The notes: generated by a model not told the origin, from the sequence alone. Positions 27,892-36,140 are shown, counted from the stretch's first letter. The stretch is DNA of 64,000 bases from Acidobacteriota bacterium (GCA_037444305.1 JBBIMP010000023.1:2798-66797); one strand, 5' to 3'. A program made the numbers and translations.

Positions 27892-28206
27892 GTGGGCAGC
27901 CGCCGGTTCATCGTGGAGTCGGACAGAGGGCTGGAGATGGTGATTCACGTGCAGCCGCGGGCGCATCGGACGGAATGTGCCGGTCTGCACGGGAGCGCAC
28001 TGAAGCTCCGCATCGCTGCGCCGCCCGTGGCTGATGCGGCAAACCGGGCGCTCCTGGAGTTCATCGCCGAGCGGCTGGGCATCGCCCGCGCCCGCGTCCG
28101 CATACTCGTCGGAGAGAAATCGCGCACGAAGAAGATTGCCCTTAAGGGGATGGGGCTGGCGGAGTTTGTGTCGAAAGTTCCGGGTGCAGACCACTTCAAC
28201 GGATGA
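27892..28206 (+). CDS. DUF167/YggU-family protein
   Basis: A ~100-aa protein immediately after yggS (the conserved yggS-yggU pairing), with a GTG start and a KLRIAAPPVADAANRAL core. Confidence 0.6.
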   Translation: MGSRRFIVESDRGLEMVIHVQPRAHRTECAGLHGSALKLRIAAPPVADAANRALLEFIAERLGIARARVRILVGEKSRTKKIALKGMGLAEFVSKVPGADHFNG

Positions 28207-28229
28207 TCGGAGGTCGGAGTCATTCAACC

Positions 28230-28907
28230 ATGCAGACGGAAAAATATCTCAAAGGCAGCCACCTGGGGGCCGGGCTCAACCCAACGGAGCTCGCCGCGCT
28301 CACGGCGATCGCCCGCACGAAGACCGTGACCAAGGGATCGATCCTCTTCATGGAAGGGGAAAAGGCCGAGGGTCTTTTCGTCCTGTTGAAGGGGATGCTC
28401 CGGATCTACAAGTCGGCTGCGTCGGGCAGGGAATATACGATCCACAGGATTCAGCCCGGGCAGATGTTCGCCGAGGCGGCCGTGTTTCACGTCGGCCGTT
28501 TTCCGGCCAACTGCGCCGCCCTGGAGGATTCCCTCGTCGCCTTTTTCCCCAAGGAGCGGTTCGCCGCGCTCATCGAGAAATCCCCGCAGATCTCGCTGAA
28601 AATCATCGCATCTCTCTCCAGGTTTCTGCGCGACTACAACCAGCAGGTGGAGAACCTCTCGCTGAAGGAAGTTCCCGCCCGCATCGCCTCCTACCTGCTG
28701 CGCGAATCCGAACGGCTCGATTCGCCGAGCATCGACCTGGAGATATCCAAGGCGGAACTGGCCAGGGGGCTGGGCACCATCAGCGAGACTTTTTCCCGCT
28801 CGCTGAAAAAACTCAAGGAGCTGCGGGTGATCAAGGTGGACCGCAACCGGATCACCATCCTGGATGAAGACCGCCTGGCCGACATCGCAGACGGTGAAAA
28901 AAGCTGA
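28230..28907 (+). CDS. Crp/Fnr-family transcriptional regulator
   Basis: A cNMP-binding beta-roll (ILFMEGEKAEGLFVLLKGMLRI) and a C-terminal HTH (ISKAELARGLGTISETFSRSLKKL). Start is either the ATG at 28230 or the one at 28203. Confidence 0.8.
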   Translation: MQTEKYLKGSHLGAGLNPTELAALTAIARTKTVTKGSILFMEGEKAEGLFVLLKGMLRIYKSAASGREYTIHRIQPGQMFAEAAVFHVGRFPANCAALEDSLVAFFPKERFAALIEKSPQISLKIIASLSRFLRDYNQQVENLSLKEVPARIASYLLRESERLDSPSIDLEISKAELARGLGTISETFSRSLKKLKELRVIKVDRNRITILDEDRLADIADGEKS

Positions 28908-28990
28908 CCCTTGACGCAAGTCAAGGAATCCGCATTTGCCGTCCGGTATCGTTGGAGCCGAAAGCTGGACTCAACGAAAAGGAGCGAGGT

Positions 28991-29743
28991 ATGCCGGTAC
29001 GGAACATCATTCACATCGACGAGGAAAAGTGCGACGGCTGCGGATTGTGCGTCCCCTCCTGCGCGGAAGGCGCCATCCAGATCGTCAACGGCAAGGCAAA
29101 ACTCGTGAACGAGGTGTATTGCGACGGCCTGGGCGCCTGCCTCGGCGAGTGCCCGCAGGATGCCATCCGCATGGAGCAGAGGCGGGCGCCGGAGTTCGAT
29201 CCGCACGCGGTCGAGGCGCATCTCGCCGCGCTGTCGGCCAAACAGGCGCCGGCTCCTCCGAAACCGCTGTTTTCATCGCCTCATCCCGCCGGCTGCCCCG
29301 GTTCGATGTCGCAGGTGTTGCAGCCCACGGCAAACCCTTGCGCGGCCCCGGCGGCGACGGCGCAGCCGCCCTCGAGGCTCGGCAACTGGCCGCTGCAGTT
29401 GCACCTGGTGCCGGTGCAGGCCCCGTTCTATGAGAATGCGGATCTGCTCATCGCGGCCGACTGCGCCCCGTTCGCCTACGCGGGTTTCCACGACGAGTTC
29501 ATCAAGGGAAAGACGGTGATGATCGGCTGCCCGAAGCTGGATGACGCCGGCGCCTACGTGGAAAAGCTGACGCAGATTTTCGCCGGCAACAGCATAAGAT
29601 CGGTCGAGATTGCCTTCATGGAAGTGCCCTGCTGTTTCGGGCTGGTCCGGCTGGTGCAGGAGGCAGTCGCCGGTTCGGGGAAGAGCATCCCGGTGAATCT
29701 GGCCAAGCTCGGCATCCGCGGCGGCATCGCGCAGCGCGGGTAG
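28991..29743 (+). CDS. 4Fe-4S dicluster-domain protein with a Cys-containing C-terminal domain of unknown function
   Basis: CDGCGLCVPSC and CDGLGACLGECP cluster motifs. The RBS AAAGGAG precedes the ATG at 28991, inside ORF 28952..29743. Confidence 0.65.
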   Translation: MPVRNIIHIDEEKCDGCGLCVPSCAEGAIQIVNGKAKLVNEVYCDGLGACLGECPQDAIRMEQRRAPEFDPHAVEAHLAALSAKQAPAPPKPLFSSPHPAGCPGSMSQVLQPTANPCAAPAATAQPPSRLGNWPLQLHLVPVQAPFYENADLLIAADCAPFAYAGFHDEFIKGKTVMIGCPKLDDAGAYVEKLTQIFAGNSIRSVEIAFMEVPCCFGLVRLVQEAVAGSGKSIPVNLAKLGIRGGIAQRG

Positions 29744-29854: not shown

Positions 29855-31894
29855 TCACTGCCTGCGGGCGAACGAATCCTGCGGCAGGCGGAGGCTCTCG
29901 AGCGTCAGCGTCGCGATATCCACCACCCGGATCCGCTCATCCAGATCGCGCAGTTTGACCGAATCCTCCAGCATCTGCTTGCAGTAGGCACACGAGGTGA
30001 CAATCGTGTCCGCCCCCTGTGCCTGCGCCTGGTCCACCCTGAGGTTGTTGATCCTCTCCCCGGCCTTCAGGTCCATCCAGAAATGTCCGCCGCCGCCGCC
30101 GCAGCACAGGCTCCGGGACCGGGCGTTCTTCATCTCCGCCACGTTCACGCCGGGAATGGCCCGGAGCACCTCCCTCGGGCTGTCGTAGATCTTCTGAAAG
30201 CGCCCCAGGTAGCACGGATCGTGATACACCGCCTTCTGCGCCGGCAGACCGACCGGCCGCAGGTGATCGCTCCAGAGCATCTCGTGCAGGTACTCCGTGT
30301 GGTGCACCACGCGGTAGTTTCCGCCGAATTGCGGGTATTCATGCGCCAGGACGTTGAAACAGTGCGGGCAGGCGGTCAGGAGCACCTGGAAACGGCGGCG
30401 GTTGAGCAGTTCGATCTGGCTCCTGGCCACTTCCTGAAACAGCGACTCGTCCCCCAGCAGCCGCGCAGGATCCCCGCAGCATCGCTCGTCCGCCCCGAGT
30501 ACGCCGAAGCGGATCCCGGTGGCCTGCAGCAGGCGGCAGAGGTCCTGGGCAATCTGCTGCTTCGTGGGATCGAACGTGGTGCAGCAGCCGATCCACAGCA
30601 GCACATCGATCGACTCCCCCTCGCCGATGACCGGGATCCCCATTTTTTCGATCCACGCCATGCGCTCCCCTTGCGGCCCGAAGGGATTGCCGAGCTGGCC
30701 GAGCATCTTCAGCATGCGGGCGGCATCGACCGGAACCGAGCCTCCCATCATGGTCTGGTGCCGGCGCAGGTCGACGACCGTGTCGAGGTGCTCGACCCGC
30801 GCCGGACAGACCTCCTGGCAGGCGCCGCAGGTGCGACAGTACCAGATCAGGTCGCCGTCGATGGCGCCGCCCACGACCTGACGGGGCGCGCCGGCGCCAT
30901 TCCCGTTCCCCCTTCCGGCTTCGCTGCGCACGAAGGCCTTCAGCTCGGAGATCAGCGCGCGCGGCGAGAGCGGCTGCCTCGCCTGCCGCGAAGGGCAGAC
31001 GTCGTCGCAGCGGCCGCACTCGACGCACCCGTCGAAGCCCAGCCTTTCCCGCCAGGTGAAGTCGGCTGCGGTGGCGATGCCGATCTGCAGCGCCGCTTCG
31101 TCGATGTCCTCCGCCGCCATAAGCGCGGCTACATCCGGCCGCGCGAGGCTGCCCCAGGCCTCGGTCTTCTGCAGTGCCACGTTGGCCGGGATCAGCACCA
31201 TGTGCAGCAGCTTGGTGTAGGGGATCAAGGCGATGAAGCCGAGCGCCATGACGCAGTGGGTCCACCAGACAAAGGCGTGAAGCGCGCGCCCGGCGTCTGC
31301 CCCCAAACCTGAAAACAAAAGCGAAAAGGCAGAGCCCACCGGGGACCACGCTGCCCACGGATCGCCAGCCACCCTGATGCGGAGCCCTTCGACCAGGAAT
31401 CCGCTCAGGAGAATCCCCGCGAGCAGCGCCAGCACCAGGTGATCCGCCGCGCGCGTGGGTAGCGTCGCCGGCCGGGCGATCGTGCGGCGGTAGAGGGCGA
31501 TGCCGATCCCCACCAGCGCCAGCAATCCCGCGATATCGGCCGCGAGCGAAAACACCAGGTAAAGGGTGCCCCGGAAGAGCGACGTGCCCAGGTCCATGTC
31601 CAACATCACCAGCAGCGTCGTCAGGAACATCACCGCAAAGGCATAGAAGATGAGACCGTGAAACAGCGCCGGCAGGCGCTCGCGCCCGACTCCCCGCTGC
31701 AGCAGAATCTCCTTGAGCATTGCCATGAGGCGCGCGCCGGGAGCCGACGTGCGATCTACGGGACGGCCGATCTGCCACTGCCTGTATCTCCGCCGGATCC
31801 CGAGGCCGAACACCACCGCGGTCGCGCCCAGCAGCGCGTACATGATCCAGATGAAGCTGACGTTCCAGCCGAGTTCTCGATGGGCTTCCACCAT
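29855..31894 (-). CDS. Fused NarI-like dihaem cytochrome b membrane domain plus HdrD-like Fe-S/CCG-domain oxidoreductase (DsrMK/HdrED-type)
   Basis: An N-terminal ~300 aa with five or more TM helices and conserved His residues. Then CVECGRCDDVCP and CRTCGACQEVCP (two 4Fe-4S sites). Then two CCG modules (WIGCCTTFDP ... CPHCFN and CCGGGGGHFW ... CAYCKQ). I take the ATG at ~31894 inside ORF 29855..31975. Confidence 0.7.
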   Translation of the reverse strand: MVEAHRELGWNVSFIWIMYALLGATAVVFGLGIRRRYRQWQIGRPVDRTSAPGARLMAMLKEILLQRGVGRERLPALFHGLIFYAFAVMFLTTLLVMLDMDLGTSLFRGTLYLVFSLAADIAGLLALVGIGIALYRRTIARPATLPTRAADHLVLALLAGILLSGFLVEGLRIRVAGDPWAAWSPVGSAFSLLFSGLGADAGRALHAFVWWTHCVMALGFIALIPYTKLLHMVLIPANVALQKTEAWGSLARPDVAALMAAEDIDEAALQIGIATAADFTWRERLGFDGCVECGRCDDVCPSRQARQPLSPRALISELKAFVRSEAGRGNGNGAGAPRQVVGGAIDGDLIWYCRTCGACQEVCPARVEHLDTVVDLRRHQTMMGGSVPVDAARMLKMLGQLGNPFGPQGERMAWIEKMGIPVIGEGESIDVLLWIGCCTTFDPTKQQIAQDLCRLLQATGIRFGVLGADERCCGDPARLLGDESLFQEVARSQIELLNRRRFQVLLTACPHCFNVLAHEYPQFGGNYRVVHHTEYLHEMLWSDHLRPVGLPAQKAVYHDPCYLGRFQKIYDSPREVLRAIPGVNVAEMKNARSRSLCCGGGGGHFWMDLKAGERINNLRVDQAQAQGADTIVTSCAYCKQMLEDSVKLRDLDERIRVVDIATLTLESLRLPQDSFARRQ

Positions 31895-31898
31895 GGGA

Positions 31899-32393
31899 TT
31901 ACACTCCTGTCGAATGCCGTGCGGGCAGAGCGGCGGCCGGCAGCACGACCTGGGGCAACGGCTCGGCAAACACACTCACCGGCGCATCGGCCGGCACAGT
32001 CACCTCCCGGCCGTGCCCGACGCCGGAAGGCGTGCGCCGGTAGTGGCTGCGCACCTTCTGCGAGACAACATCCCAGAGTTCCGTCGCCGCCACCAGCTTT
32101 GCTCCGCGCAGGTCCAGAAGCGCCAACAGCGGCCGCAGCGCTGCCATGGACCTCGACAGGCAGCCGCATCGGTCGACCAGGAACGAGCTCCAGGGCCCCT
32201 CGAACCGCAGGGCCGCTCGCAGCCCCGTGCGGTCCATCAACGAACACTCCCGCGCCTCGTCCTCAAACCAGGCGATGATCTCGATTCCCTGCTGCCGGGC
32301 GTATTCCTCGATCCGGCGCCGCTGGTCGGCGCAGCACACCTCGCCGGATCCGGTGCAAGACGATATCGGGCTCACATATGCAATGGCCTTCAT
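31899..32393 (-). CDS. Small Cys-rich protein with a resolvase-N-terminal-like (flavodoxin-like) fold; paralog A1
   Basis: MKAIAYV ... VCCADQ ... LVDRCGCLSRS ... AATELWD. About 35-40% identical to the upstream paralog. Internal ATG at 32393 inside ORF 31899..32408. Confidence 0.5.
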   Translation of the reverse strand: MKAIAYVSPISSCTGSGEVCCADQRRRIEEYARQQGIEIIAWFEDEARECSLMDRTGLRAALRFEGPWSSFLVDRCGCLSRSMAALRPLLALLDLRGAKLVAATELWDVVSQKVRSHYRRTPSGVGHGREVTVPADAPVSVFAEPLPQVVLPAAALPARHSTGV

Positions 32394-32447
32394 GCCTCCT
32401 CCCTCCACGATGGTCAGGGGCGCGTTCCATCCGCGCCCCCGGCGGTT

Positions 32448-32927
32448 TCACAGGCCGGTCGGCTGCCGTACCAGAGCGGCGAAGTTGAGGCGGGCGGGCC
32501 GCTTCATTCCGATCCGATCCCGCACGGGCACGATCTGCGTGATCACGCAGGTCGGCGGCCGCAGCGCACCTTTGTGGAAGTGCCGCACCTGCTGCGAGAG
32601 GCAGTCCCACAGCTCGGTGGCCGACTGCAGCGCGACATTCTTTTCCTGCAACGCCTCCAGCAGCGGCCTCACCTCCGACAGGGACCTGCTGAAGCACCAG
32701 ATACGCTCCACCAGGATGAGGTCGTAGGAATCCGGGTGCGCCAGCATCGCCTTGACACCTGGACGCTCCACCACCGGCCCGTGGCAACCGTCATCTTCAA
32801 ACCGCGCCACGATCTCTATGCCGTGTGTCTTGGCGTACAGCTCAATCTGCTCGCGCTGCTCCTCGCAACAGATTTCGATATCGGTGTTGGGGATTCGAAT
32901 GCAGTTCACATAGGTGATGGCTTTCAT
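32448..32927 (-). CDS. Small Cys-rich protein with a resolvase-N-terminal-like (flavodoxin-like) fold; paralog A2
   Basis: MKAITYV ... ICCEEQ ... LVERIWCFSRS ... SATELWD. RBS AAGGAG 7 nt before the ATG at 32927 (inside ORF 32448..32972). Confidence 0.5.
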   Translation of the reverse strand: MKAITYVNCIRIPNTDIEICCEEQREQIELYAKTHGIEIVARFEDDGCHGPVVERPGVKAMLAHPDSYDLILVERIWCFSRSLSEVRPLLEALQEKNVALQSATELWDCLSQQVRHFHKGALRPPTCVITQIVPVRDRIGMKRPARLNFAALVRQPTGL

Positions 32928-32967
32928 CTTCTGTCTCCTTTTAGGGCTCGGTCCCCTCGCCTGCAAT

Positions 32968-32983
32968 AGCACGCTCCGTGCCA
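32968..32983 (-). promoter_or_regulatory. Candidate sigma-54 (-24/-12) promoter: TGGCACGGAGCGTGCT
   Basis: On the minus strand, the GG and GC elements have exactly the consensus spacing. It lies ~40 nt upstream of the A2 ATG and immediately downstream of a GAFTGA-type bEBP gene. Confidence 0.45.
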
Positions 32984-33312
32984 GGCCCCGGGCCGCAAGC
33001 TATCACTATGTTTTCAAATGGTTTATGACCGATCGATCCGCGGACAGGCCGTTGCGTCCCATGGCGTGAGTGTAAGAAAACCTTGCGGCGAGCCGGACAA
33101 AAGGGCCGAACCGAGGACGCAAATCACTATTAATGAATGGTATGCAGGCAGCAGCGGCCCGCTGTAAGGATTTCTTGCATCGTATTCGGCGCTGCGGGAA
33201 TGGCGCGCCAGAAACAAAAGAAATGCAATGATTTGCAGTCCCGGATAGTCCCGCGCAAATAAAACTATCGCCTCTGCGGGATCCGGCAGCAGGATCCCCG
33301 GCGCCTGCACTA

Positions 33313-34677
33313 TCAGTCGAGGCCGTGTTTTTTCAGCTTGCTGTGCAGGCCGACGCGGGAGCAGCCGAGTATTCTCGCGGCGGCGGTGCGGTTGCCGGAG
33401 GTGTGGTCCAGAACCCGGATAATGTGCTCGCGCTCCAGTTCCGAGAGCGTCTTGAACCCATGGGCGCCGGCGGGAAGACGGGAACCGTTCAGCCCGGCAG
33501 TGACCGCCGGGGGGAGCGACCTCCGGGTGAGCGCACGCTTTTTTTCGAGCACAACGGCGGAGGCGATGATGTTCTCCAGTTCCCGGACGTTTCCCGGATA
33601 GTCGTAACGCTCCAGGATCTCGAGCACGTCGTCTTCTATGTATTCGATCCGCCTGTCGTTCCTCCGGCAGTGCCGGTCGAGGAAGAAATAGGCCAGCAGG
33701 TCCACATCCCCCTTCCGCTCCCTGAGCGGCGGGAGGTGGATGGAACTGATGTTGAGCCGGTAATAAAGGTCGAGGCGAAATCCGCCCGCCTCGATCATCG
33801 CCGGCAGGTCCCGGTTGGTAGTGGCGATGACCCTCACGTCCACGCCCCGCCGCTGCGTCGATCCCACGTGAAAGAACTCCCCCTCCTGCAGAACCCGCAG
33901 GAGCTTTGCTTGGTTGACCGCCTCCAGGTCGCCGATCTCGTCCAAGAAGAGCGTGCCGCCATCCGCTTCCTCGAAGAAGCCGGTTTTCTGCCGGTGGGCG
34001 CCCGTGAACGCGCCCCTCTCGTGGCCGAAGAACTCGGAGGCGAACAGGTCGGCCGCGTGCTCCGCCATATTGACCGCAATGAAGGGCCCGGCAGCGCGAG
34101 GACTGGCGCGGTGGATGGCGTGCGCCACCAGCTCCTTTCCGGTTCCGCTCTCCCCCTGGATGAGAACGTTGTTGCCGCTCCGCGCGATCTGCTCCAGCCT
34201 TCCGAGGATGCGAAGCAGGGCCGGATCGCGCGTGACGATTCCGTGGAAGCCGGCCTCGTGTCTCAGCTTTTCCTGGGCAATCTCCCCCCGCAGCCGGGAG
34301 ACCTGGCCGCGGAGACGGCTGTGCTCCAATGCGCGTTCCATGGAGGTCAGGAGCCGGTTTTTGTCCACGGGCTTGCAGATGTAGTCGTAGGCTCCCAGCT
34401 TCATGGCATCGACCGCGAGCGAAACGTCCTCCACCCCGGTAATCACGATCACCCCCAGGTCATGTTTCTCGCGGACGTACCGGAGAATGTCCCGGCCCGT
34501 GACCGTGGGCATATCCATGTCCAGGAGGATCAGGTCGAAATCACCGCCGTCAATCACACTGAAGGCGCGGCTGCTGTCCTGGAGCGTCTCCACTTCGAAG
34601 CGGCCGTCCTGGGCGAAGAACACGAGGAAGTGGTTCAGGACGGCCTCGTTGTCGTCGATGATGAGGATGCGGTTCAC
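33313..34677 (-). CDS. Sigma-54-dependent response regulator (NtrC/AtoC family): REC, AAA+ and Fis-type HTH domains
   Basis: ILIIDDNE ... LLDMDMP (REC), GESGTGKE, GAFTGA, a C-terminal HTH (AAARILGCSRVGLHSKLKK). GTG start at 34677, overlapping the kinase stop (GTGA). Confidence 0.85.
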   Translation of the reverse strand: MNRILIIDDNEAVLNHFLVFFAQDGRFEVETLQDSSRAFSVIDGGDFDLILLDMDMPTVTGRDILRYVREKHDLGVIVITGVEDVSLAVDAMKLGAYDYICKPVDKNRLLTSMERALEHSRLRGQVSRLRGEIAQEKLRHEAGFHGIVTRDPALLRILGRLEQIARSGNNVLIQGESGTGKELVAHAIHRASPRAAGPFIAVNMAEHAADLFASEFFGHERGAFTGAHRQKTGFFEEADGGTLFLDEIGDLEAVNQAKLLRVLQEGEFFHVGSTQRRGVDVRVIATTNRDLPAMIEAGGFRLDLYYRLNISSIHLPPLRERKGDVDLLAYFFLDRHCRRNDRRIEYIEDDVLEILERYDYPGNVRELENIIASAVVLEKKRALTRRSLPPAVTAGLNGSRLPAGAHGFKTLSELEREHIIRVLDHTSGNRTAAARILGCSRVGLHSKLKKHGLD

Positions 34678-36140
34678 GTAGCCCTCCCGCCGATGGGGAA
34701 TATGTAACGAAAGGTCGCGCCCTTGCCCTGCGAGCTGTCCACCTCGATCCGGCCGCCGTGCTGTTGCACGATGCCGTAGGTGATCGACAGGCCCAGCCCT
34801 GTCCCGCCCGCGCGTTGCCGGGTCGTGAAAAACGGATCGAAAAGCCGGGCCTGAGCCGCTTCGTCGATTCCCGGGCCGTTGTCCTTGATGGCCACCCACA
34901 CCTTGGGCGGAAAGGTGACAGCGCGCGTCGTGATCTCGATGGCCGGGTCGGGGGAGCCGGCGAGCGCGTCCGCGGCATTGATCAGCGTGTTCACGATGAC
35001 CTGGCCGATGCGGTTGGCGCTCCCCTTGAAGGTCGGCAGCCGTGGATCCAGGTCTTCGACGACGCGGAAGTGCTTGATGCGGTTGTGCACTAGGCGCCTC
35101 GACGATTCGATCACAGCGTTGAGGTCGACATCGTCCTCCAGCAACCCTTCGTCCCGCCGGGCGAAGATCCTGAGATCGCGGACGATGTCGCGGATGCGCG
35201 TCACGCCGTCGACCATATCGTCCAGCAGCGCCGGGGCGTGCTTGCGGAAGAAAGGATACTTCAGCCGCGCGACCGTCAGCTCCGGGTTGCGCCCGGCCTC
35301 TTCGTCCAGCAGCGGAAGGATGTCGTCGAAGCTCTCGCGCACTATCTGCATGTTGCCGCCGATGAACTGCACCGGGTTGTTGATCTCGTGCGCTATGCCG
35401 GAGACGAGCTGCCCGAGCGAGGCCAGCTTCTCCGACTGGATGAGCTGGCTCTGCTGGTTGAGCAGCTCGTCGTTGGCGCGGCGCAGCTCGTGGGACTTGG
35501 CATCGAGCAGGTCCCAGGCTTCCACCAGCTCCTGCTCGCGCCTGCGCAGGCTGGTGACGATCGAGGTTGTGATCCAGATGGTGACGAACAAGGTGACGAA
35601 AAAGACCAGGGCCACTGTCCCGATGAAGCGGACGTCCTGGTGCCGGGGAACCGGGTGGAGCGCACGCAGGTTCACGTGCGGGAGCACCTCGTGGTACTCC
35701 AGCAGGACAACCCCCATGAACATGCCGAACGCCACCAGGCCGAAGGCGTAGACCTCGGCCCGCGACAGCAGGATGCTGCTGATGATGGCGTGGAAGAGGT
35801 AGAAGAACAGAAGAGGATTTTCGATCCCCCCGGCGAAGTGGATGAGCAGGCTCAGGGCCAGCGTGTCCAGGTAGGTCTGCAGGATGGCCTCGGTTCGATT
35901 GGTGCCGGAACTCCTCCCTCCGCGGGCCTTCTGCCGCCGGTGCCCGAAGAAGAAAACCGTGTTGTAAAGGCCGATCACCGCGGCCACTGTGAGTGTGCCC
36001 GCGCGGGAGAAACTCACCCCCAGGAGATCGTGAGCGAAGAAGATCGAGGCTGCCAAGCCGGCCAGGAAGACCCAGCGGATGTTGACGAACCACCAGAGGC
36101 GGAATTTGAGTTCTTCTTCTCTGAGCGATCGACTCGACAT
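34674..36140 (-). CDS. Sensor histidine kinase with a multi-TM N-terminal sensor domain
   Basis: HisKA (SGIAHEINNP) and HATPase_c (DNGPGID ... GTGLGLSI). The start is at 36140 or at 36176. Confidence 0.8.
   Translation of the reverse strand: MSSRSLREEELKFRLWWFVNIRWVFLAGLAASIFFAHDLLGVSFSRAGTLTVAAVIGLYNTVFFFGHRRQKARGGRSSGTNRTEAILQTYLDTLALSLLIHFAGGIENPLLFFYLFHAIISSILLSRAEVYAFGLVAFGMFMGVVLLEYHEVLPHVNLRALHPVPRHQDVRFIGTVALVFFVTLFVTIWITTSIVTSLRRREQELVEAWDLLDAKSHELRRANDELLNQQSQLIQSEKLASLGQLVSGIAHEINNPVQFIGGNMQIVRESFDDILPLLDEEAGRNPELTVARLKYPFFRKHAPALLDDMVDGVTRIRDIVRDLRIFARRDEGLLEDDVDLNAVIESSRRLVHNRIKHFRVVEDLDPRLPTFKGSANRIGQVIVNTLINAADALAGSPDPAIEITTRAVTFPPKVWVAIKDNGPGIDEAAQARLFDPFFTTRQRAGGTGLGLSITYGIVQQHGGRIEVDSSQGKGATFRYIFPIGGRAT

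What the first reader, a model, noticed from the sequence alone, without database searches (positions are those of the whole stretch)
32955..33312. Intergenic control region with a candidate -24/-12 promoter, an IHF-like AT-rich box and palindromic candidate enhancer sites
Read on the minus strand, four elements appear in order:
- TGGCAC-GGAGC-GTGCT (GG and GC with exactly 10 nt between them) lies ~40 nt upstream of the A2 start.
- Further upstream is an AT-rich stretch (33121-33150, aatcactattaatgaatgg) that resembles an IHF site.
- Beyond that is the palindrome TGCAATGATTTGCA (33224-33237).
- A TTGCAT ... ATGCAA inverted pair (33175-33230) is spaced ~40 bp apart.

This arrangement of enhancer, bend and promoter is the canonical architecture for bEBP-activated promoters. 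The regulator encoded immediately upstream is the obvious candidate activator.
Basis: seen in the sequence. Interest (0 to 1): 0.55.

Follow-up and report, generated by a model that had tools for sequence, protein, structure and literature searches.

The report
Sigma-54 promoter with a swapped enhancer
The spacer holds a genuine-looking sigma-54 promoter for a conserved, uncharacterised redox operon, an ordinary kind of control region, except that here its usual enhancer and activator seem to have been replaced by those of an unrelated two-component system.

Summary

- **Promoter:** TGGCACGGAGCGTGCT (32983..32968, minus strand) has one mismatch to the sigma-54 consensus. It lies 56 nt before the A2 ATG. 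In loci that encode A2 homologues, 62 of 80 carry an equivalent -24/-12 element at the same place. None of 218 control regions does.
TGCAA-N4-TTGCA and the TTGCAT/ATGCAA pair are at chance level.
- **Better enhancer candidate:** two related 17-bp dyads, TGYAAG-N5-CTTRCA, at 33163-33179 and 33071-33087. They form a 20/25 inverted repeat that no shuffle out of 300 reached. Their centres are -188 and -96 from the -24 T.
it sits between these two dyads, not between enhancer and promoter. A second weak IHF-like box (33001-33027) lies where relatives carry a consensus IHF site.
- **Activator:** the adjacent regulator is a complete NtrC-type activator, but of a different lineage. It is 34-37% identical to the activators that accompany this operon elsewhere, and 60-64% identical to a family found next to other redox clusters. 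The usual enhancer, TGTAT-N9-ATACA, is absent.

The verdict is an ordinary sigma-54 control region, with probable replacement of the enhancer and activator. The identities of the enhancer and the activator are inferred, not shown.

The parts
32968..32983 (-). Sigma-54 (-24/-12) promoter TGGCACGGAGCGTGCT. GG is at 32982-81 and GC at 32970-69.
   Evidence: It has 1 mismatch to TGGCACGNNNNTTGCW and is the only match at that level in 64 kb. An equivalent element lies upstream of the first A gene in 62 of 80 homologous loci, against 0 of 218 control regions.
32955..32959 (-). Predicted transcription start, about 12 nt downstream of the GC. This gives a 5' UTR of about 30 nt.
   Evidence: Inferred from the usual sigma-54 promoter geometry. 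It was not measured.
32935..32939 (-). Shine-Dalgarno sequence AGGAG, 7 nt before the A2 ATG at 32927.
   Evidence: Read directly from the sequence.
33001..33027 (.). Promoter-proximal AT-rich box with weak IHF-like matches: TATCACTATGTTT, TTTCAAATGGTTT and CATAAACCATTTG. Centres are -24 to -38 from the -24 T.
   Evidence: All three are 2-mismatch matches to WATCAANNNNTTR. In the position histogram of homologous loci, 29 IHF-consensus matches in the sense orientation fall in the -40..-20 bin, mostly centred at -35..-37. This is a weak match, supported mainly by its position.
33071..33087 (.). Proximal candidate enhancer dyad TGTAAGAAAACCTTGCG (6-5-6). Its centre is -96 from the -24 T.
   Evidence: It is one of only two matches at 1 mismatch or fewer to TGYAAG-N5-CTTRCA in 64 kb, where 0.12 are expected. 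It is one arm of a 25-nt, 20/25 inverted repeat that 0 of 300 shuffles reached. Its position equals that of the proximal enhancer site in relatives, -93..-120.
33121..33144 (.). Its centre is about -150 from the -24 T.
   Evidence: It has only 2-mismatch IHF matches and none at 1 mismatch or fewer. Its position coincides with the second IHF-consensus cluster in relatives, -143..-168.
33163..33179 (.). Distal candidate enhancer dyad TGTAAGGATTTCTTGCA. Its centre is -188 from the -24 T.
Evidence: It matches TGYAAG-N5-CTTRCA with 0 mismatches and is the other arm of the significant inverted repeat.
33224..33237 (.).
   Evidence: It is present, but this kind of palindrome is expected by chance. 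It has no counterpart in related loci.
33278..33298 (-). GC-rich hairpin GGGATCC-N7-GGATCCC, just after the activator's stop codon.
   Evidence: It appears in the repeat search (I4) and in the fold. It is no more stable than shuffles (z = 0.10) and does not score as a terminator. Read-through into A2 is therefore not excluded.
33313..34686 (-). NtrC-type response regulator and enhancer-binding protein, with receiver, sigma-54 AAA+ (GAFTGA) and Fis-type HTH_8 domains.
   Evidence: The domains come from Pfam. GAFTGA was found by pattern search, and this is the only such gene in the window. It is 60-64% identical to family P0006-P0124 and 34-37% identical to the activators next to A operons elsewhere.
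34674..36140 (-). Membrane sensor histidine kinase with a multi-TM N-terminus, HisKA and HATPase_c. Its end overlaps the regulator gene.
   Evidence: The domains come from Pfam. It is 52% identical over its full length to the kinase of locus L026. There is a weak N-terminal match to RegB/PrrB-type kinases.
32448..32927 (-). A2, the first gene of the controlled operon. It is 159 aa and has a serine-recombinase catalytic-domain fold without a DNA-binding domain.
   Evidence: Pfam Resolvase, E = 1e-12. AlphaFold pLDDT is above 85 for residues 1-100, and Foldseek matches serine recombinases. The Asp-Arg catalytic pair is replaced.
31899..32393 (-). A1, a paralogue of A2 (42% identity).
29855..31897 (-). 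Membrane Fe-S oxidoreductase: a NarI-like transmembrane domain, a 4Fe-4S dicluster and two CCG (HdrD/DsrK-type) domains.
   Evidence: The domains come from Pfam. In 46 of 52 homologous loci with enough flank, a homologue lies directly downstream of the A gene(s).

Best explanation
**Promoter (well supported)**
The 385-nt spacer between the response-regulator gene and A2 is a sigma-54 control region. RNA polymerase with sigma-54 binds TGGCACGGAGCGTGCT (32983..32968, minus strand). It should start transcription at about 32957. The operon has three genes: two resolvase-fold proteins (A2, A1) and a membrane NarI/HdrD-like Fe-S oxidoreductase. This promoter is an ancestral, conserved feature of the operon family.

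**Enhancer and bend sites (inferred)**
- The enhancer is most likely the pair of related 17-bp dyads TGYAAG-N5-CTTRCA at 33163-33179 and 33071-33087.
- Their centres are -188 and -96 from the -24 T.
- Two AT-rich, weakly IHF-like boxes could bend the DNA: one between the dyads (33121-33144) and one between the proximal dyad and the promoter (33001-33027).

**Activator (inferred)**
The activator is most likely the adjacent NtrC-type regulator, phosphorylated by the adjacent membrane kinase. It would assemble on the dyads, loop to the promoter and use ATP hydrolysis through its GAFTGA loop to open it.

**Replacement of the usual regulator (inferred)**
This regulator is not the lineage that accompanies the operon in other genomes, and the family's usual enhancer (TGTAT-N9-ATACA) is absent. 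The enhancer and activator therefore appear to have been replaced, while the promoter core and overall spacing were kept.

**Status of each step**
- Shown: promoter sequence, position and conservation; the activator's domain content; absence of the family enhancer; significance of the dyad pair.
- Inferred: transcription start, sigma-54 dependence, which protein binds which site, and IHF involvement.
For: **Promoter**
- It has 1 mismatch to the consensus and is the only such match in 64 kb.
- It is on the correct strand, 56 nt before an ATG that has an AGGAG Shine-Dalgarno sequence.
- In homologous loci, 62 of 80 have a match with at most 2 mismatches within 250 nt upstream of the first A gene on the sense strand. 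None of 218 control regions does.
- No sigma-70-like promoter, terminator or Rfam family was found in the spacer.

**Activator**
- It has receiver, Sigma54_activat, AAA_lid_14 and HTH_8 domains.
- GAFTGA is present, and this is the only such gene in the window.
- Other members of its 60-64% family also have a sigma-54 promoter just downstream of the regulator gene, ahead of a transport or redox operon: L026, L099 and L105.
- L105 even shares the unusual GTGCT -12 element.

**Dyads**
- The 25-nt inverted repeat matches at 20 of 25 positions. No shuffle out of 300 reached this; the maximum was 19.
- The motif matches at 1 mismatch or fewer only at these two sites in 64 kb, where 0.12 are expected.
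- The 6-5-6 format is that of NtrC-type sites (established knowledge).
- The proximal centre at -96 falls in the -93..-120 range of the proximal enhancer in 56 related loci.

**Replacement**
- The family enhancer PWM scores at best 1.9 bits in the spacer. Real family sites have a median of 22, and shuffles average 0.9.
- The window activator is 34-37% identical to the operon-associated activators. Those are 42-100% identical to each other.
- It is 60-64% identical to the other family.
- The recognition helices differ: ILGCSRVGLHSKLKK here against VGMQR(P/T)NFHALMRK.
Against: - No close relative of the locus exists in the collections searched. The best A2 homologue is 48% identical. The dyads could therefore not be footprinted phylogenetically.
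- The dyad motif was not found in eight loci of the activator's own family.
- An unbiased search found no 17-mer shared beyond chance among the four promoters that lie downstream of such activators: 36 observed against 35.4 +/- 0.8 in shuffles.
- That family's conserved synteny is with a NuoE/NuoF/formate-dehydrogenase-like cluster, not with this operon.
- Each 6-5-6 palindrome taken alone is at chance level: 3 observed against 2.2 expected.
- The IHF-like boxes have 2 mismatches each.
- Such matches are enriched simply because the spacer is AT-richer than the genome: 9 in 385 nt.
- A pattern search found no rpoN or ihf gene in the window, so their presence in the genome is untested.
Confidence: 0.6

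Rival explanations
1. The sigma-54 promoter is real, but its activator is encoded elsewhere in the genome. The neighbouring two-component system is adjacent by accident and controls other genes, for example a NuoEF/formate-dehydrogenase-like cluster.
For: - In 32 of 37 homologous loci with enough flank, the partner activator belongs to another lineage and is encoded divergently. None is co-directional.
- The window activator's closest relatives are conserved next to NuoE/NuoF/GltD-FdhA genes.
- No motif is shared with other promoters of that family.
Against: - The family-type enhancer is absent from the spacer, so the family-type activator would have nothing to bind.
- No other enhancer-binding protein is encoded in the 64 kb.
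- The arrangement 'kinase, regulator, 200-600-nt spacer with a sigma-54 promoter, operon' recurs in L026, L099 and L105.
Confidence: 0.2
2. The enhancer is the palindrome TGCAATGATTTGCA (33224-33237), together with the TTGCAT/ATGCAA pair. The AT-rich box at 33121-33150 is the IHF bend between that enhancer and the promoter.
For: - The sequences exist at the stated coordinates.
- The palindrome has perfect 5-nt arms.
- The AT-rich box lies where relatives have a second IHF cluster.
Against: - Palindromes of this quality are expected by chance: 7 observed against 4.6 expected in the spacer, and 1 against 1.12 in the window.
- The palindrome's centre is at -247. This is near the relatives' distal enhancer position (-217..-243), but the site occurs once and has no proximal partner.
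- The AT-rich box has no IHF match at 1 mismatch or fewer.
- The only repeat in the spacer that exceeds chance is the 17-bp dyad pair.
Confidence: 0.1
3. The -24/-12 match is fortuitous. A2 is transcribed by read-through from the kinase-regulator operon or from an unrecognised promoter of another type.
For: - A match at 1 mismatch or fewer somewhere in 64 kb is expected about 0.7 times by chance.
- The hairpin after the regulator gene does not score as a terminator, so read-through is possible.
Against: - The element is on the right strand, 56 nt before the ATG.
- It is conserved at that place in 62 of 80 homologous loci against 0 of 218 controls.
- No sigma-70-like promoter is found in the spacer.
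Confidence: 0.05
4. The long inverted repeat (33071-33095 / 33155-33179) is not a pair of protein-binding sites. It is instead a structural element in RNA or DNA, for example a stem in a read-through transcript, or a remnant of a rearrangement.
For: The arms are 25 nt long and 80% complementary, with a 59-nt loop. They pair in the minimum-free-energy fold.
Against: - The fold is no more stable than shuffles: z = -0.27, and 73 of 200 shuffles fold at least as well.
- There is no Rfam match.
- Each arm is itself a 6-5-6 dyad, typical of dimeric HTH binding sites, and lies at enhancer-like distances from the promoter.
Confidence: 0.05

Closest known systems
NtrC-activated glnAp2-type sigma-54 promoters of enteric bacteria (from established knowledge)
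   Same: - The activator is a response regulator with receiver, AAA+ and Fis-type HTH domains, partnered with a histidine kinase.
- The promoter is a -24/-12 element.
- The enhancer consists of two 17-bp dyads of 6-5-6 format (NtrC: TGCACC-N5-GGTGCA), roughly 100-200 bp upstream.
   Different: - The half-site sequence differs (TGYAAG).
- The dyads are 92 bp apart, not about 30 bp.
- The genes controlled are unrelated to nitrogen assimilation.
- No binding or phosphorylation data exist.
OrpR (DVU2106) / IHF / sigma-54 control of the orp operons in Desulfovibrio vulgaris Hildenborough (PMC3897727)
   Same: - The order is the same: a palindromic activator site at about -130, IHF sites at about -40 to -80, then the sigma-54 promoter.
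- The functional IHF site there (CATCACAAGCTCG) is only 67% like the E. coli consensus. Weak matches such as TATCACTATGTTT here can therefore be functional.
   Different: - OrpR is not a two-component response regulator.
- The orp promoters are divergent.
- The IHF requirement was demonstrated there and is untested here.
   Same: - The sigma-54 promoter lies 42-140 nt before the first A gene.
- There is a proximal enhancer site at about -95 to -120.
- There is an IHF-type box at about -35 and another at about -145 to -165.
- The downstream genes are the same.
   Different: - There the enhancer is TGTAT-N9-ATACA (19 bp), and the distal copy is about 125 bp from the proximal one.
- There the activator is encoded divergently and has a VGMQRxNFH recognition helix.
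- Here the dyads are TGYAAG-N5-CTTRCA, 92 bp apart.
- Here the activator is co-directional and of another lineage.
ETF:methylmenaquinone oxidoreductase (EMO) of Syntrophus aciditrophicus (PMC8805022), as comparator for the third gene only
   Same: Both are membrane-bound proteins that combine a haem-b-type transmembrane part with Fe-S and cysteine-rich cytoplasmic domains.
   Different: - No sequence comparison with EMO was made here, and no etf genes are adjacent.
- The partner genes here are resolvase-fold proteins.
- This is a lead from memory and literature, not a membership claim.

Membership tests
Sigma-54 (-24/-12) promoter | GG and GC dinucleotides with exactly 10 nt between them, within a match to TGGCACG-N4-TTGCW. 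| tested here: met
   TGGCACGGAGCGTGCT has 1 mismatch (G for T at the first T of TTGC). It is the only such match in 64 kb.
Sigma-54 (-24/-12) promoter | Placed upstream of a gene, on its strand, at a plausible distance. | tested here: met
   It lies 56 nt from the T of TGGCAC to the A2 ATG, with an AGGAG Shine-Dalgarno sequence. Relatives span 42-140 nt.
Sigma-54 (-24/-12) promoter | Conserved in orthologous control regions. | tested here: met
   62 of 80 loci have a match at 2 mismatches or fewer, against 0 of 218 control regions.
Sigma-54 (-24/-12) promoter | Transcription depends on RpoN and starts about 12 nt after the GC. | not testable with these tools
   This needs RNA mapping and genetics. 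A pattern search found no RpoN box in the window, and the rest of the genome was not available.
Enhancer (UAS) for an NtrC-family activator | Dyad-symmetric sites about 80-250 bp upstream of the promoter that occur more often than chance. | tested here: met
This is met for the 17-bp dyad pair at 33071-87 and 33163-79.
Enhancer (UAS) for an NtrC-family activator | The same motif occurs at targets of orthologous activators. | tested here: inconclusive
   - The motif is absent from eight loci of the 60-64% family.
- There is no shared 17-mer beyond chance.
- A shared word TTTCTTR, in an inverted pair, is seen in L099, but it was found post hoc.
- Most target promoters of that family were outside the DNA fetched.
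Enhancer (UAS) for an NtrC-family activator | Bound by the activator. | not testable with these tools
   This needs EMSA or footprinting.
IHF binding site | Match to WATCAANNNNTTR. | tested here: not met
   No match at 1 mismatch or fewer exists in the spacer. There are 2-mismatch matches at 33001-13, 33012-24, 33015-27, 33128-40 and 33132-44, among nine in the spacer.
IHF binding site | Lies between enhancer and promoter, at a position conserved in related promoters. | tested here: met
   - The box at 33001-27 has centres at -24 to -38. In relatives' position histogram, 29 consensus matches in the sense orientation fall in the -40..-20 bin, mostly at -35..-37.
Relatives show a second cluster at -143..-168.
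NtrC-family two-component enhancer-binding protein | Receiver domain, sigma-54 interaction AAA+ domain with GAFTGA, and a C-terminal Fis-type HTH, next to a histidine kinase. | tested here: met
   The domains come from Pfam. GAFTGA was found. The kinase gene overlaps the regulator gene.
The activator/enhancer pair that normally accompanies the A/HdrD-like operon | TGTAT-N9-ATACA sites upstream of the promoter, and a divergently encoded activator with a VGMQR(P/T)NFHALMRK helix. | tested here: not met
   - The PWM scores at best 1.9 bits, against a family median of 22.
- There is no match at 2 mismatches or fewer in the spacer.
- The activator is 34-37% identical to that group and has a different helix.

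The most novel reading that the evidence does not exclude
This promoter belongs to an undescribed, widely conserved sigma-54-controlled module. The module consists of one or two catalytically dead serine-recombinase-fold proteins plus a membrane NarI/HdrD-like oxidoreductase. Its control region has a stereotyped layout: enhancer, IHF, enhancer, IHF, promoter.

This genome would record a wholesale replacement of the enhancer and its two-component activator by those of a lineage normally attached to NADH/formate-type redox clusters. The promoter core and the spacing of the architectural sites were kept. That would be a natural example of how sigma-54 regulons are rewired.
Probability: 0.5. Interest if true: 0.45.

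Novelty: new member of a known kind. Interest (0 to 1): 0.3.

Why it matters
As a control region it is textbook. Its value is as annotation and as a handle on an unknown system.

- **Annotation:** it marks the start and the mode of regulation of a three-gene operon found in about 90 loci from uncultured Deltaproteobacteria-like organisms. The function of this operon is unknown.
- **Signal:** it links the operon to a membrane sensor kinase.
- **Rewiring:** if the enhancer and activator replacement is real, comparing this locus with its relatives offers a clean natural case. It would show how an enhancer-dependent promoter changes its input signal without changing its core.
- **Test material:** the comparison also supplies defined DNA sites to test for two activator lineages.

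Tried and rejected
**Searches for close relatives and shared motifs**
- Close relatives, for phylogenetic footprinting of the spacer: none exist in the genome or metagenome collections. The best A2 homologue is 48% identical.
  - The only identical copy is the same MAG plus one Logan assembly with an identical spacer.
- The binding motif of the activator's own family: nine look-ups gave loci where the contig ended, the downstream gene abutted, or no motif was shared (analyses 52, 56, 61).
- Apparent similarities were all found post hoc or at chance level, and are not used as evidence:
  - the word TTTCTTR in L099;
  - a 13/17 match in L105;
  - the 10-mer TAGCTTGCGG shared with L105;
  - GATCGGTCATAAACC against L026.

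**Tests of elements within the spacer**
- A gapped direct repeat between the two AT-rich boxes (ATCACTAT...AATGGT) is not significant: 47 of 300 shuffles score as well.
- The family enhancer in the window is absent.
- There is no riboswitch or other RNA family, no sigma-70 promoter and no intrinsic terminator in the spacer.
- RNA structure of the inverted repeat and of the hairpin after the stop codon is not more stable than shuffles.

**Other checks**
- A pattern search found no rpoN or ihf gene in the window.
- The 95-aa ORF at 33023..33310, which spans the spacer, was treated as spurious. It was not tested further.

Full report
**What is at the coordinates**

On the minus strand the gene order is as follows:
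- a membrane histidine kinase (34674-36140);
- an NtrC-type response regulator (33313-34686) with receiver, sigma-54 AAA+ and HTH_8 domains;
- a 385-nt spacer (32928-33312);
- A2 (32448-32927) and its paralogue A1 (31899-32393), both small proteins that match only the resolvase N-terminal domain;
- a 680-aa membrane protein (29855-31897) with a NarI-like transmembrane part, a 4Fe-4S dicluster and two CCG (HdrD/DsrK-type) domains.

The window is contig CAZIEJ010000011.1 of the metagenome-assembled genome GCA_964538715.1.

**The promoter**

- TGGCACGGAGCGTGCT (32983..32968) differs from TGGCACG-N4-TTGCW at one position. It is the only match at that level in the window.
- By sequence alone this is not impressive: 0.68 such matches are expected in 64 kb.
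- Its position is what counts. It is on the sense strand of a short spacer, 56 nt before an ATG preceded by AGGAG.
- The decisive evidence is comparative. Searches with the A-protein family retrieved 23 genome loci and 67 metagenome loci.
  - In 46 of 52 loci with enough downstream flank, the A gene or genes are followed directly by the HdrD-like gene.
  - In 62 of 80 loci with at least 200 nt upstream, a match at 2 mismatches or fewer lies within 250 nt before the first A gene on the sense strand. Most lie 55-105 nt upstream.
  - None of 218 control regions reached that level.
- The spacer contains no sigma-70-like promoter, no terminator-like site and no Rfam match.

I therefore take the sigma-54 promoter as real, with about 0.9 confidence. 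It is an ancestral feature of this operon.

**The layout in relatives**

In 56 non-redundant related loci the control region is stereotyped. Positions are counted from the T of TGGCAC.
- A 19-bp dyad, TGTAT-N9-ATACA, is centred at -93 to -120.
- A second copy lies about 125 bp further upstream.
- A consensus IHF site (WATCAANNNNTTR) in the sense orientation is centred at -35 to -37. In the position histogram, 29 sense-strand matches fall in the -40..-20 bin.
- A second cluster of IHF sites lies at -143 to -168, between the two dyads.
- In 32 of 37 loci with at least 3 kb upstream, a kinase and an enhancer-binding protein are encoded divergently. In none are they co-directional.

**The window differs in enhancer and activator**

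- The family dyad is absent from the window spacer.
  - There is no match at 2 mismatches or fewer.
  - A weight matrix built from 144 family sites scores at best 1.9 bits. Real sites have a median of 22, and shuffles of the spacer average 0.9.
- The neighbouring activator is 34-37% identical to the operon-associated activators. Those are 42-100% identical to one another.
- It is 60-64% identical to a large separate family.
- Its recognition helix (ILGCSRVGLHSKLKK) matches that separate family (ILGISRVGLHSK...). It does not match the operon-associated group (VGMQR(P/T)NFHALMRK).
- The kinase follows the same pattern: 52% identity over its full length to the kinase of L026.

The separate family is usually encoded just after a NuoE/NuoF/GltD-formate-dehydrogenase-like cluster. 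In three other contexts its regulator gene is followed by a spacer with a sigma-54 promoter and a transport or redox operon:
- tctCBA in L026;
- a Fer4_11/NrfD membrane complex in L099;
- an MvhD/Hdr-like cluster in L105.

The window has the same arrangement. L105 shares its unusual GTGCT -12 element.

**Candidate enhancer in the window**

- The one repeat in the spacer that exceeds chance is an inverted repeat of 25 nt (33071-33095 and 33155-33179), matching at 20 of 25 positions. No shuffle out of 300 reached it; the maximum was 19.
- Each arm contains a 6-5-6 dyad: TGTAAGAAAACCTTGCG and TGTAAGGATTTCTTGCA.
- The pattern TGYAAG-N5-CTTRCA occurs at 1 mismatch or fewer only at these two places in 64 kb, where 0.12 are expected.
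- Their centres are -96 and -188. The proximal one coincides with the proximal enhancer position in relatives.
- The 17-bp 6-5-6 format is that of NtrC-type sites (established knowledge).
The ATGCAA half overlaps the distal dyad.
- I could not confirm the dyads comparatively.
  - No close relative of the locus exists.
  - The motif is not found in the fetched loci of the activator's family.
  - No 17-mer is shared beyond chance among the four comparable promoters.
- An RNA-structure reading of the inverted repeat is not supported (z = -0.27).

**Bend sites**

- No IHF match at 1 mismatch or fewer exists in the spacer.
- Matches with 2 mismatches cluster in two AT-rich islands.
  - One is at 33001-33027, with centres at -24 to -38. 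This is the position of the consensus IHF site in relatives.
This is the position of the relatives' second IHF cluster, between the two enhancer sites.
It is not the promoter-proximal bend, and by sequence it is weak.
- In Desulfovibrio vulgaris a functional IHF site at a sigma-54 promoter is only 67% like the consensus (PMC3897727). Weak matches are therefore not disqualifying.

**Most likely mechanism and its limits**

The likely sequence of events is:
1. The kinase senses a membrane or redox signal. There is a weak RegB-like N-terminal match.
2. It phosphorylates the adjacent regulator.
3. The regulator assembles on the two dyads.
4. Aided by DNA bending at the AT-rich boxes, it contacts the sigma-54 holoenzyme at 32983..32968.
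5. Transcription of A2-A1-HdrD-like begins.

The promoter and its conservation, the activator's domain make-up, the absence of the family enhancer and the significance of the dyad pair are shown. Everything about binding, bending, the transcription start and sigma-54 dependence is inferred.

The main rival (0.2) is that the true activator lies elsewhere in the genome.

**Comparison and novelty**

This is a new member of a well-known kind, an enhancer-dependent sigma-54 promoter with an NtrC-family activator. The modestly interesting aspect is the apparent replacement of enhancer and activator at a conserved promoter.

The controlled operon is also uncharacterised.
- The A proteins have the serine-recombinase catalytic fold: pLDDT above 85 over residues 1-100, with Foldseek matches to Bxb1, TP901-1 and Sin.
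- They lack the DNA-binding domain and the catalytic Asp-Arg pair. The usual LDRLGR is replaced by RIWCFSR.
- The catalytic-serine region does not align.
- The third protein resembles, in architecture only, membrane haem-b/Fe-S enzymes such as EMO (PMC8805022). No sequence test of that resemblance was made.

Noticed in passing
window 29855-32927 (minus strand); loci L001-L023, L031-L097: A conserved, apparently undescribed gene module occurs in about 90 loci from uncultured Deltaproteobacteria-like MAGs and metagenomes. It has one or two small proteins with a serine-recombinase catalytic-domain fold, followed by a membrane NarI-like/4Fe-4S/CCG (HdrD-type) oxidoreductase. The small proteins lack a DNA-binding domain, and their catalytic Asp-Arg pair is replaced.
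   Followed up: partly
L001-L097, 350 nt upstream of the first A gene: The control region has a very regular architecture in relatives. It has TGTAT-N9-ATACA dyads at about -95/-120 and about -220/-243. It has consensus IHF sites at -35..-37 and about -145/-165, followed by the sigma-54 promoter. A dyad match was found in 56 of 56 non-redundant loci.
   Followed up: yes
L026-L030, L098, L101, L102: The kinase/activator family closest to the window's pair (60-64% identity) is repeatedly encoded at the end of a cluster. The cluster runs RR-AsnC-like, NuoE-like, NuoF-like, then a large GltD/formate-dehydrogenase-like fusion of 1220-1800 aa. In L099 and L105 the pair instead precedes other redox operons.
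   Followed up: partly
L012 about 895-1345; L016 about 2647: L012 carries a second, separate A-type gene with its own sigma-54 promoter and TGTAT-type dyads. In L016 a near-consensus sigma-54 promoter also faces the divergent kinase gene, which suggests autoregulation in some relatives.
   Followed up: no
window 28203-29743 (plus strand): A CRP/FNR-family regulator and a ferredoxin-like protein (also matching the AF_0155 family) lie convergent to the end of the operon.
   Followed up: no
window 33278-33298: A perfect 7-bp GC-rich hairpin (GGGATCC-N7-GGATCCC) lies directly after the activator's stop codon. No T-run follows it, and it is not more stable than shuffles. Read-through into A2 cannot be excluded.
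   Followed up: partly
window 32995-33005 and L105 about 7560: The 10-mer TAGCTTGCGG lies just upstream of the window's -24 element. It also occurs upstream of the sigma-54 promoter in L105, which sits downstream of a 61% identical activator. The spacing to the promoter differs, and the match is compatible with chance.
   Followed up: no
window 33023-33310 (minus strand): A 95-aa GTG-initiated ORF spans almost the whole spacer. It was not called as a gene in the public record and was treated as spurious.
   Followed up: no
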